From contig OZ024756.1 in the NCBI GenBank assembly GCA_964016885.1, positions 26,722,001-26,786,000 on the forward strand: 64,000 bases of DNA. Reading direction: 5' to 3'. The stretch is from Eledone cirrhosa (taxonomy: Eukaryota). The notes under the pieces are model-generated. The model searched no databases. It saw only the letters and a program-made list of their open reading frames with translations, and was not told where the DNA came from. A program made the translations under genes and the position numbers. Positions 24,001 to 27,000 of this stretch are shown here, piece by piece. The stretch's first letter is position 1; every line of letters starts with the position of its first letter.

Positions 24001-27000
24001 TTCTGAGTTCTAATTCTCCACAAGATACTTTATTTCCTGTTGCTCCTTCTACCTGATTTGCGACTGATAGATAGTATTAGCGATTGTAAAGACCAATGGA
24101 AACGTTCCCTTGGTCCAATTTGACAAGCTCCACCCAACTCTTAAGCGTATGAAGTCTGGGATCTTGTCAATTGACTGTCAATACATACATAGACACGCAT
24201 GTGTGTATATATATATATACATACACACACACACACACACACATATAAATCTAGGGAGTGTAACTTGGAGTTACTGTAGGTTCACCCGGGTGAGCACTCG
24301 ATGTTTAGGTTCACTTCTGTGTCGAGGTGTAGAGCTATACAGAGTGTAATATATTGATAGGATAACAAGGATGATTGGTTACTCCTTCATTACATTTATT
24401 GGTAGGTGACGCGCGTTTCGCTACTGATCAGCTCAAGGTTTGATCTGTATCGATCCTACCCGACTCTATAATCGGCAGCTTGACGGACCCTTTAAAACTA
24501 GCATTTTAAAGGGTCCGTCGAGCTGCTGATTATAGAGTCGCATAAGATCGATACAGATCGAACCTTGAGCTGATCAGTGGCGAAACGCGCGTCCCCTACC
24601 AATAAATGTAATGAAGGAGTAACCAATCGTCCTTGTTATCCTTTCAATATATATATATGTCTTTGCGTGCTATTGTTCTCCACGCTCCACATATGACTTA
24701 TTATCTTCGTTTTTTCGTTCATTGCCAGAGAACGTCTCTATGCACCACCTAAGAGAACATTAGTCTACGACCTCTTTTATACCATAAACGTGGTTTTGTC
24801 TTTGCGAGTAATTGTTTTTCACCGCTCCTATTAATGACGTATTATTCGTTTTTTCCCGTTCTTTGCCACGAACCAAAGTATCGTCTTCCTGTCTTCCTCC
24901 GGTTGCAACGTTTTTTGAAATATCCAGTTCTGCGTTTACAGATTGACTTTGTTAGTTTCAGAAGATCCCGTTAAGGGTGAAAGCAGCGATTCTTTGCTTA
25001 AACTTTAATCTGTTATTTTAATAAATATATATATATATATATATATATATCATTATCATCATTGTATATATATAAGGAAACAAACAATGAAATACTTACT
25101 TCATTATAAAAGTCTTCAAGAATAACATCAGCATCATCAATAATCTATTAACAAGAAATACTTCACTATATTAAGGAAGAAAAGGTATCATGTGTTTGGG
25201 TTGATTGTTTGGATGGATGAACAGATAGACAGATAGATAGATAGACATATGTTTCTTCATTTGCCACAAGGGCACACAAGAAATGGGACATTACAAGACA
25301 TGACAGGGGTTTTACATAAAAGCTGTGTAAACTTTAACATTGTTAAATTGAAATATATATAGATAGATAGATACATATAGATTGATGGATGGAAGGATGG
25401 GTAGATAGATAGATAGATTTCTTTATTTGCCACAAGGGCGCACAAGAAAAGGGGACAATGCAAAGACATACCGGGGATTTTACATAGTCGTGTAAAAATT
25501 ATAAACAAACAATTATAACAACCAAAATCTCAATAGGGGGGGGGGGGGGGGCGTCACAAATGGGTTGTTTAATACCCCGTCGATAGAACAACCCTCAACT
25601 TCAGGAGCGTGCTGTGCAAGTGCCCCTTTCTTCCTTTTGGTCTCTTCTTTAACCTACAGGCTTATAAACAGAGGTCCAATCACTCGGGCCATGTTTGCCA
25701 CATTCCCCCACCTTTCAGTAAATTTACTGGGATGCAGTGCCTCTCTCCACTCTGATTCTCCTTCTAAAGTGATACTTAAAGAAGGGAATCAATTGTTGTC
25801 CGGAGAGAAAGGCATCTGTCCTCAGTCCTCTCAATCTCGTCCACCATATAACCTCTTTCACCATAGCCACCGTACAGAGGAAAACCGCCTTTCCTTCGTT
25901 AGATAGATAGATAGATTGGGTTAAATAGTGAAGAGTCACAAGTTCAAATGTGTTTGGTTGATTAATTGGTTGGATGGATGAACAGACTTATGGATAGTTA
26001 GATAAAAAGATATATAGATGATACACACATAGATAGATAGGTAGGTAGGTAGGTAGATATATAGACCGATCGATAGATACATAGACAGATACACACAGAT
26101 AGATTTTTTTAATTTATTTATTTGTGTTCCAGCCGAGGGCTGAGGCCATGCTGGGGCACCGCTTTGGATAAAACAATGAAGGATTGCAAGTTCAAATCAT
26201 GATACTTACATCGGTTACCCCCCACTTTCACACGCATACATCTGTGCGTTTATGTGGGTGTCGATGTATGTACTTACATATGTATGCATGCATGTATGTA
26301 TTTTCTATGTGGGAGTTTTTCAAAATATATGTGTGTACACAGAGACACAGTTACAGAAATGTATAAAAGGAGTCTTACCATGTGACAAAGTCTGTTGAGG
26401 TTTGTGTACTGGTTGACAATCATTCGATTGAGACTAGGAAGTGTGGCCACAAGAATGTGACAGCCATTTAGCAAACTGACCTGAAACGATGACCATAGAA
26501 GGACATTGCAGTACTATTTCACCAAACACAAAACACTCACTTATATATATATATATATATATATATTAGAAAATAGAATAACTTTCACCGTATATTTGAC
26601 TAAAGCAATTTTAGCCTGTTAATGGGGTTTAGAACCCTCAGATAATTGGAAAAAGATGAGTATTGACGTACACTCATCTTTTTCCATTTATCTGAGGGTT
26701 CTAAACCCCATTATCAGGTTAAAATTTCTTTAGTCAAATATACGGTGAAAGCTATTCTATTATCTAATTTCAAACCTGCTCACTGTTTCAAAACATACTT
26801 ACTTGTCATATATATATATATATATATGATGATGATTATATATATTAATAATAAAAAGGACTATTTGTTAGGTCTTCATTTTTTATTATCAGTATTACAC
26901 TCTGCTTAGTACTACACCTTTTTACTTATAGTAACTGGACATTACAATCCCTATATATATATACACACACACACACATATATATACTATACAGGATGGTT

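What the first reader, a model, noticed from the sequence alone, without database searches (positions are those of the whole stretch)
24349..24652. Hammerhead homolog with a non-canonical core (CCGUCGA instead of CUGANGA) and a conserved stem II insert
Seen: a 9-bp stem II (GCTGCTGAT/ATCAGTGGC), GAAA-CGCGCG-TC and stem I (GGGT/ACCT in the - copy) are in hammerhead register, but the core reads CCGTCGA (+) and CCGTCAA (-). The stem II insert shares TA(T/C)AGAGTC..TCGAT..TCG..CCT(T/C)GAGCTGATC with the 62 kb element, and the tails share ACTCGATG and CAGAGT(G/A)TAATA, while stems I-III differ in sequence yet still pair. Inference: either a natural core variant (U4C plus A6U) or a decayed ribozyme. 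The stem II insert looks like a conserved extra RNA domain of unknown function.
Basis: partly seen in the sequence, partly recalled or inferred. Interest (0 to 1): 0.72.

Follow-up and report, generated by a model that had tools for sequence, protein, structure and literature searches.

The report
Doubly altered hammerhead in Penelope retrotransposon
This inverted repeat is two head-to-head end pieces of a Penelope-like jumping gene whose hammerhead-ribozyme motif has two changes in its normally fixed catalytic core; the changes are shared by about a thousand copies and the rest of the motif stayed conserved afterwards, so it is likely a slowed but still useful self-cutting RNA, though cutting is untested.

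Summary
24349-24652 is a 149-bp-arm inverted repeat in a (TA)n tract. It is made of two 5'-truncated pseudo-LTRs of a Penelope-like retrotransposon whose ORF has Hydra-clade motifs. CCGUCGA is not private decay: 84 of the first 100 core-blind hits read it, none has A6, and 1,060 genomic sites match. Close sister subfamilies read CUGANGA. The core changed stepwise (U4C, then A6U) in the source lineage; U4C arose at least three times, A6U once. After A6U the 91-nt domain stayed constrained: 4-9% divergence versus 23-34% at fourfold sites of linked ORFs, with no source-level change in 12 canonical core bases. Stems I-III covary; the 42-nt stem II insert is conserved in sequence, but its fold is not shown by covariation. 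Best reading (0.45): an attenuated, dimer- and protein-assisted hammerhead. Main rival (0.33): a non-cutting RNA scaffold; published mutagenesis finds CUGA double mutants weak, and copy ends show no trace of cutting. New variant of a known kind.

The parts
24251..24497 (-). Left arm: 5'-truncated pseudo-LTR running to the distal 3' end (about 160 nt past the predicted cleavage site), including the ~100-nt tail
   Evidence: 66 of 225 A-type hits end at the distal site, 63 at the proximal site
24480..24486 (-). Core of left arm, CCGTCAA: lineage variant plus a private G8A
24408..24419 (-). Left arm G12-A14, palindromic stem III and GUC triplet; predicted cut between 24408 and 24407
   Evidence: register from alignment A1
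24251..24348 (-). Tail present on one arm only; holds the motifs shared with the 62 kb element; likely spans the two reverse-transcription start sites
   Evidence: model from PMC11167929
24498..24503 (.). Head-to-head junction of the two truncated copies, just 5' of stem I
   Evidence: I7
24504..24652 (+). Right arm: 5'-truncated pseudo-LTR ending at the proximal 3' end (about +59)
24511..24514 (+). Stem I 5' strand (pairs with 24594-24597; first pair broken privately in this copy)
24515..24521 (+). Variant core CCGUCGA (U4C + A6U)
24522..24581 (+). Stem II (24522-24530 with 24573-24581) enclosing the 42-nt conserved insert (24531-24572)
24582..24593 (+). G12-A13-A14, self-complementary 8-mer stem III (dimer type), GUC triplet; predicted cut after 24593
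24204..24250 (.). (TA)n/(CA)n tract on the left; with the (TA)n run at 24647-24658 it is the insertion target
61953..62325 (.). Related family (B1) with the same two-arm layout, canonical CTGATGA cores (62200-62206 +, 62154-62160 -), a different stem III palindrome and the same insert

Best explanation
The repeat is two head-to-head, 5'-truncated terminal repeats (pseudo-LTRs) of a Penelope-like retrotransposon inserted in a (TA)n tract, each holding a type I hammerhead homolog whose CCGUCGA core is the inherited state of a ~1,000-copy lineage and is likely a slowed but still selected self-cleaver. Shown: element identity, stepwise history of the core (CUGANGA to CCGACGA to CCGUCGA), continued constraint on the domain. 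Inferred: two RNA copies pair through the palindromic stem III to form a double hammerhead; the long stem II arm and the element's own protein offset the weakened core; cutting is slow, which suits an element whose reverse transcriptase starts downstream of the cut site and needs an uncut template. The two arm ends likely mark the two reverse-transcription start sites.
For: Element: ORF end, 3'UTR and unit are contiguous and co-oriented (L061); eleven more loci link the unit to the ORF, L336 with pLTR-ORF-pLTR plus an inverted copy. Core history. Position 7 varies freely among subfamilies while C3, G5, G8, A9, G12-A14, A15.1, U16.1 are the majority base in all 21 subfamily rows. Stems I, II and the stem III palindrome show double-sided changes (10 of 32 pairs; slid controls 28-36% paired versus 86%). 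After A6U: A4 vs A5 copies differ at 23-34% of fourfold ORF sites but 4-9% of the 91-nt domain (8 pairs; Fisher P 4e-6 and 3e-3 on two of them). Among 81 lineage copies no source-level change falls in the 12 canonical core bases; P 0.015-0.05 against the synonymous rate. The double-hammerhead fold stays within 0-6.4 kcal of the dimer minimum in variant subfamilies, against 3.6 in canonical A0 sisters. Precedents: U4C viroid variant viable in vivo, A6C phage variant slow (PMC3088659; PMC7151607); anole PLE hammerhead cuts only with protein (PMC11167929).
Against: In a full pairwise scan of another hammerhead all single and double mutants of the CUGA turn had low activity except the C3-G8 swap (PMC9901934). 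A6C cut a consensus ribozyme's Mg2+ rate from 0.3 to 3.6e-6 per min. The 12 core bases are not significantly more conserved than the rest of the domain (11 source-level changes in the other ~79 positions, expected 1.7 in the core, P about 0.19, my arithmetic). C4 and U6 themselves are not shown to be selected (P 0.35-0.47). Copy 5' ends are not enriched at the predicted cut: 15 junctions against 8 and 11 at control offsets, also for canonical sisters. Both changes favour a rod-like monomer fold 5-8 kcal below the catalytic one. The otherwise fixed CAG of the insert changed twice after A6U, once breaking a pair. Hammerhead mutants did not affect insertion in vitro in the anole element.
Confidence: 0.45

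Rival explanations
1. The CCGUCGA domain no longer cuts; it is kept as an RNA scaffold (long stem II arm, dimerising palindrome, possibly a rod in which C4-G5-U6 pair with A15.1-C15.2-G15.3) that the element's protein binds for packaging or template choice.
For: Low activity of all CUGA double mutants elsewhere. Predicted pairing probability of U6 with A15.1 is 0.86 in A1 monomers; RNAalifold finds position 4 covarying with 15.3. The whole domain, not only the core, is constrained. No cut-site signature in copy ends. Naiads spread without canonical hammerheads (PMC8557442).
Against: The rod's probability falls to 0.03-0.39 in the later subfamilies A1b-A5 and the dimer fold outcompetes it. One U4C locus (L305, both arms) and a singleton (L318) lack G15.3. 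All catalytic bases stay intact over about 0.35-0.45 synonymous changes per site.
Confidence: 0.33
2. Plain decay: the ribozyme was lost in the source element and the domain only looks conserved because pseudo-LTRs were exchanged between subfamilies more recently than their ORFs.
For: Stepwise loss of two core bases; weakening changes in stem II and the insert after A6U; cleavage dispensable in vitro.
Against: In A4 vs A5 pairs sequence on both sides of the domain is more diverged (upstream 13-22%, downstream about 9-15%) than the domain (4-9%), and ORF distances add up along the same ladder as the pLTR subfamilies. The domain-to-synonymous ratio is no higher after A6U than before.
Confidence: 0.1
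3. The constraint acts on DNA: the insert and its flanks are part of the internal promoter or an endonuclease recognition site, and the hammerhead bases ride along.
For: Insert positions are sequence-invariant with no double-sided change. PLE pLTRs carry promoters (PMC6765202; PMC8557442).
Against: Stems I-III covary, the distal hairpin tolerates loop indels while its 4-bp stem is fixed, and one-sided changes mostly give G.U.
Confidence: 0.07

Closest known systems
Hydra clade of Penelope-like elements (Craig et al. 2021, PMC8557442; passages, section 11, supplement parts read)
   Same: C-terminal endonuclease with CxCx5C linker, RWR for RWK, DKT, no CCHH, CxxC/CxH motifs, (TA)n targeting, inverted 5'-truncated copy, tail on one end; some related subfamilies have U.U at the base of stem II as in several listed Hydra hammerheads.
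   Different: All 26 Hydra rows of File S2 have CTGANGA and a 3-10 nt loop II; here a 42-nt insert and U4C/A6U. Unit about 4.9 kb (L336) versus under 3 kb; tail about 100 nt versus 30-40. The listed Hydra-1_oBim hammerhead is a different sequence.
Minimal dimeric type I hammerheads of metazoan PLEs (Cervera and de la Pena 2014, PMC4209133, parts 1-2 of 4 read; Lunse et al. 2017 known only through the review PMC6765202)
   Same: Type I topology, short stem I, long stem II, palindromic stem III, location in the pLTR, predicted dimer action.
   Different: The core variant named in the parts read is U3-A8; no U4C+A6U and no large conserved stem II domain there.
Natural hammerhead core variants U4C (viroid) and A6C (phage Bcep176) (PMC3088659, PMC7151607; passages read)
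   Same: Changes at the same two positions occur singly in nature with reduced activity.
   Different: Here both positions are changed together, A6 to U rather than C, and fixed in a high-copy lineage with a traceable history.
Poseidon element of the green anole (Frangieh et al. 2024, PMC11167929; parts 1-2 of 4 read)
   Same: Two fixed 3' ends giving a tail, AT-rich targets, no reads or copies beginning at the cleavage site.
   Different: Other clade; canonical core that overlaps the ORF start, whereas here the cut site lies about 200 nt before the ATG.

Membership tests
Hammerhead ribozyme, type I (canonical) | Three helices round the core, 5' and 3' ends meeting in stem I | tested here: met
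   stems I-III pair and covary; stem I only 3-4 bp in this lineage
Hammerhead ribozyme, type I (canonical) | C3, G5, G8, A9, G12, A13, A14, A15.1-U16.1, H17 | tested here: met
   majority state in the lineage; the window's - arm has a private G8A
Hammerhead ribozyme, type I (canonical) | U4 and A6 (CUGANGA) | tested here: not met
   C4 and U6. Filed as a hammerhead homolog that likely works like one, not as a canonical member
Hammerhead ribozyme, type I (canonical) | Site-specific self-cleavage | not testable with these tools
   copy-end proxy gave no signal
Hammerhead ribozyme, type I (canonical) | Rfam RF00163 gathering score | tested here: not met
   none listed at the locus; 19.7 bits versus 34 in one of four sister loci; the long insert is outside the model
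PLE minimal dimeric hammerhead | Palindromic stem III allowing a double hammerhead | tested here: met
   three different self-complementary 8-mers across subfamilies; dimer fold accessible
Hydra-clade PLE | Single ORF with RT and C-terminal GIY-YIG-type endonuclease, pLTR after it | tested here: met
   YRDD and C-terminal YIG segment in linked copies. Pfam GIY-YIG did not hit the L067 piece; it hit a related element in L064 at E 9e-4, below cut-off. All copies seen are broken
Hydra-clade PLE | RWK-like, DKT, CxCx5C linker, no CCHH, CxxC and CxH near the C end | tested here: met
   RWR, DKT (GKT in L333), CxCx5C, CxH; CxxC and a single Cys before YIG read
Hydra-clade PLE | Insertion into (TA)n | tested here: met
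Hydra-clade PLE | Canonical hammerhead in the pLTR (reported as universal) | tested here: not met
   met in sister subfamilies, not in this one
Hydra-clade PLE | Phylogenetic placement of the RT with published Hydra families | not tested
   reference proteins were not available as tool sequences; one search gave 23 mostly unnamed relatives
Non-LTR retrozyme | Short non-coding monomer without its own ORF | tested here: not met
   the unit is the end of an ORF-bearing element

The most novel reading that the evidence does not exclude
CCGUCGA is an active natural hammerhead core with two of the 'invariant' U-turn bases changed, rescued by a conserved 42-nt stem II domain and/or the element's reverse transcriptase; the lineage tuned cleavage down in steps, and the genome preserves the whole allelic series in one scaffold.
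Probability: 0.3. Interest if true: 0.75.

Novelty: new variant of a known kind. Interest (0 to 1): 0.5.

Why it matters
What hammerheads do for Penelope-like elements is still open (PMC8557442, PMC11167929). This genome holds a natural series, CUGACGA, CCGACGA, CCGUCGA, in scaffolds that differ at a handful of other bases and each gave hundreds of copies. Assaying the three side by side would show whether cleavage rate matters to the element. If the double variant cuts, the accepted core consensus and the descriptors built on it miss real ribozymes. If it does not, a ribozyme fold has been kept under selection after losing catalysis, which points to the long stem II arm as a protein-binding site.

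Tried and rejected
Rfam on the window: only sub-threshold microsatellite-driven miRNA hits among those listed. No RNA holder listed; the four contig runs laid show only a high-copy repeat and cannot show RNA ends. Metagenome scan: 6 hits, all GC-rich, without the core or palindrome, taken as chance. Cut-site junction test: 15 versus 8 and 11; at least 4 of the 15 are deletions, point changes or duplications, and the +5 control pattern was slightly looser than intended. Neptune and Naiad assignment rejected on linker, domain order and missing CCHH. The GIY-YIG ORF beside a family B copy (L051/L069) belongs to another element and was not used. K-turn and box C/D readings of the insert (recalled consensus) did not fit the register. 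One search had stem III columns misplaced by two; one search replaces it. The shuffle control ignores relatedness and is not a probability; R-scape was not available. Subfamily rules were set by hand on sites outside the core; 39 of 248 copies stayed unassigned and A3/A4 ages are biased by BLAST-picked loci (only 2 unbiased copies each). The first 100 listed hits of each pattern come from contigs C1-C2 only. Lunse et al. 2017 could not be read; it describes many PLE hammerhead variants and may bear on novelty. Not found in print: searches and motif search of the PMC8557442 supplement.

Full report
Setting. The window is G000:C17:26722001-26786000 of a 3.0-Gb AT-rich animal genome. The only named relatives of the element's protein are from Octopus bimaculoides, so a cephalopod is inferred.

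Observation. The motif is as described. It sits in an inverted repeat with 149-bp arms between microsatellites. The left arm continues to 24251. Both window copies carry private damage (G8A in the - arm, A1.1C in the + arm), and the perfect stem II of the + arm is private. The insert shared with the 62 kb element is real.

What it is. A DNA search gave 1,119 first-look candidates, 40 scored; a 22-mer of the insert has 2,177 exact genomic hits, 0 for the control. Long copies place the unit at the 3' end of an ORF on the same strand (L061). Of 20 further long loci, 12 gave hits to the ORF pieces (the L340 hit is only 33% identical); L336 has pLTR-ORF-pLTR plus an inverted truncated copy. The ORF has YRDD, RWR, DKT, a CxCx5C linker, no CCHH and a CxH near the end, the features given for the Hydra clade (PMC8557442 section 11). 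No tree with published families was built. Of 225 A-type BLAST hits in my loci, 63 end at about +59 and 66 at about +164 from the predicted cut; the window has one arm of each. This matches the two reverse-transcription start sites shown for the anole element (PMC11167929), which is an inference for this family.

History of the core. With the seven core bases left free, 84 of the first 100 of 589 hits read CCGTCGA and none has A6; the others are mostly CpG-type single changes. A pattern for the variant has 1,060 hits, 98 of the first 100 with C4. A neighbouring pattern (699 hits) lists about 51 exact CTGANGA, 7 CCGACGA and 14 CCGTCGA in its first 100 (counted by eye). An older group (1,459 hits) is mostly CCGACGA with CTGATGA relatives. 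The group of the 62 kb element (1,467 hits) is mostly CTGANGA with position 7 free, and has one subfamily with CCGAGGA. Sorting 209 of 248 copies by sites outside the core gives a ladder E (U4), C and A0a (C4), A0b/A0 (U4), A0.5 (C4), A1-A5 (C4, U6). So U4C arose at least three times and reverted once, and A6U arose once. Copy divergence falls from 0.14 (E1) and 0.08 (C) to 0.015-0.04 in A0-A5, so the variant lineage is among the youngest; present activity is not shown.

Structure. On 26 natural copies, 86% of cells pair against 28-36% in slid controls, and 10 of 32 pairs change on both sides, in stems I, II and the stem III palindrome. The 13 insert pairs have none: the insert is fixed in sequence, with loop indels and a few G.U changes. 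Its fold is therefore compatible, not proven. Both core changes are complementary to A15.1-C15.2-G15.3 and favour a rod-like monomer, but this weakens in later subfamilies and the double-hammerhead dimer stays as accessible as in canonical sisters.

Constraint after A6U. ORF-linked copies of A4 and A5 differ at 23-34% of fourfold sites, 5-7% of second codon positions and 4-9% of the 91-nt domain (8 pairs, not independent). Distances from A0ii grow along the ladder (JC 0.20, 0.33-0.36, 0.39-0.49, 0.59-0.71 for L325), giving about 0.35-0.45 synonymous changes per site since A6U after removing copy decay (my estimate). Among 81 lineage copies, ten columns carry eleven source-level changes, none in the 12 canonical core bases or the palindrome: P 0.015-0.05 against the synonymous rate, but about 0.19 against the rest of the domain. 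The domain is constrained; the catalytic bases are not shown to be constrained more than their neighbours.

Does it cut? Against: all CUGA-turn single and double mutants were weak in another hammerhead except the C3-G8 swap (PMC9901934, passages); A6C nearly abolishes Mg2+ activity though Mn2+ rescues it (PMC7151607, passages); copy 5' ends are not enriched at the site, in variant or canonical copies. For: U4C is viable in a viroid and distal contacts are thought to offset variant cores (PMC3088659, passages); PLE hammerheads are slow, dimeric and in one case protein-assisted; all catalytic bases and the palindrome persist. I put attenuated cleavage at 0.45, a non-cutting scaffold at 0.33, decay masked by exchange at 0.10 and a DNA-level role at 0.07.

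Novelty. Hammerheads in PLE pLTRs and the Hydra clade are known. The long insert is absent from the 26 Hydra rows of File S2, and I found no U4C+A6U core in my searches; one key paper (Lunse 2017) could not be read. Earlier notes of this scan report the long arm and U4C in this genome; the word CCGUCGA met no note and the sequence look-up was blank. New variant of a known kind; interest 0.5.

Noticed in passing
window 9498-9867: Another inverted repeat with a canonical CTGAGGA core on both strands (9761 +, 9604 -) and an AT-rich stem III; a different hammerhead-like pLTR family.
   Followed up: no
window 26837-26920 (-): Truncated pLTR piece of the older C-type subfamily, downstream part and tail only.
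   Followed up: partly
window 41488-41933: 160-bp-arm palindrome with internal tandem units inside a SINE copy.
   Followed up: no
window 110-256 and at least 13 other places: Abundant short interspersed repeat (families D10-D14), with several inverted pairs.
   Followed up: no
G000:C1 71075301, 174674500, 185032696, 229312443: Four of the first 100 hits read TTGAT at the core start in an old subfamily: a possible C3U lineage without the G8A partner.
   Followed up: partly
L064 2029-8616: Three different Hydra-like ORFs (39-50% identical to L067 for the two others) nested within 7 kb.
   Followed up: no
PMC8557442 supplement, Chlamys-1_meVir 5' end: CCGACGA followed about 70 nt later by CGAAAC: possibly a U4C long-arm hammerhead in an algal element listed without one.
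   Followed up: no
window 24296-24303 and 62006-62013: The tail block shared by distant subfamilies lies between the two fixed 3' ends; candidate signal for the start of reverse transcription or part of the promoter.
   Followed up: partly
L346, L348: Two copies on different contigs share the same three-base change over the cleavage triplet: perhaps a small source lineage with a destroyed site.
   Followed up: no
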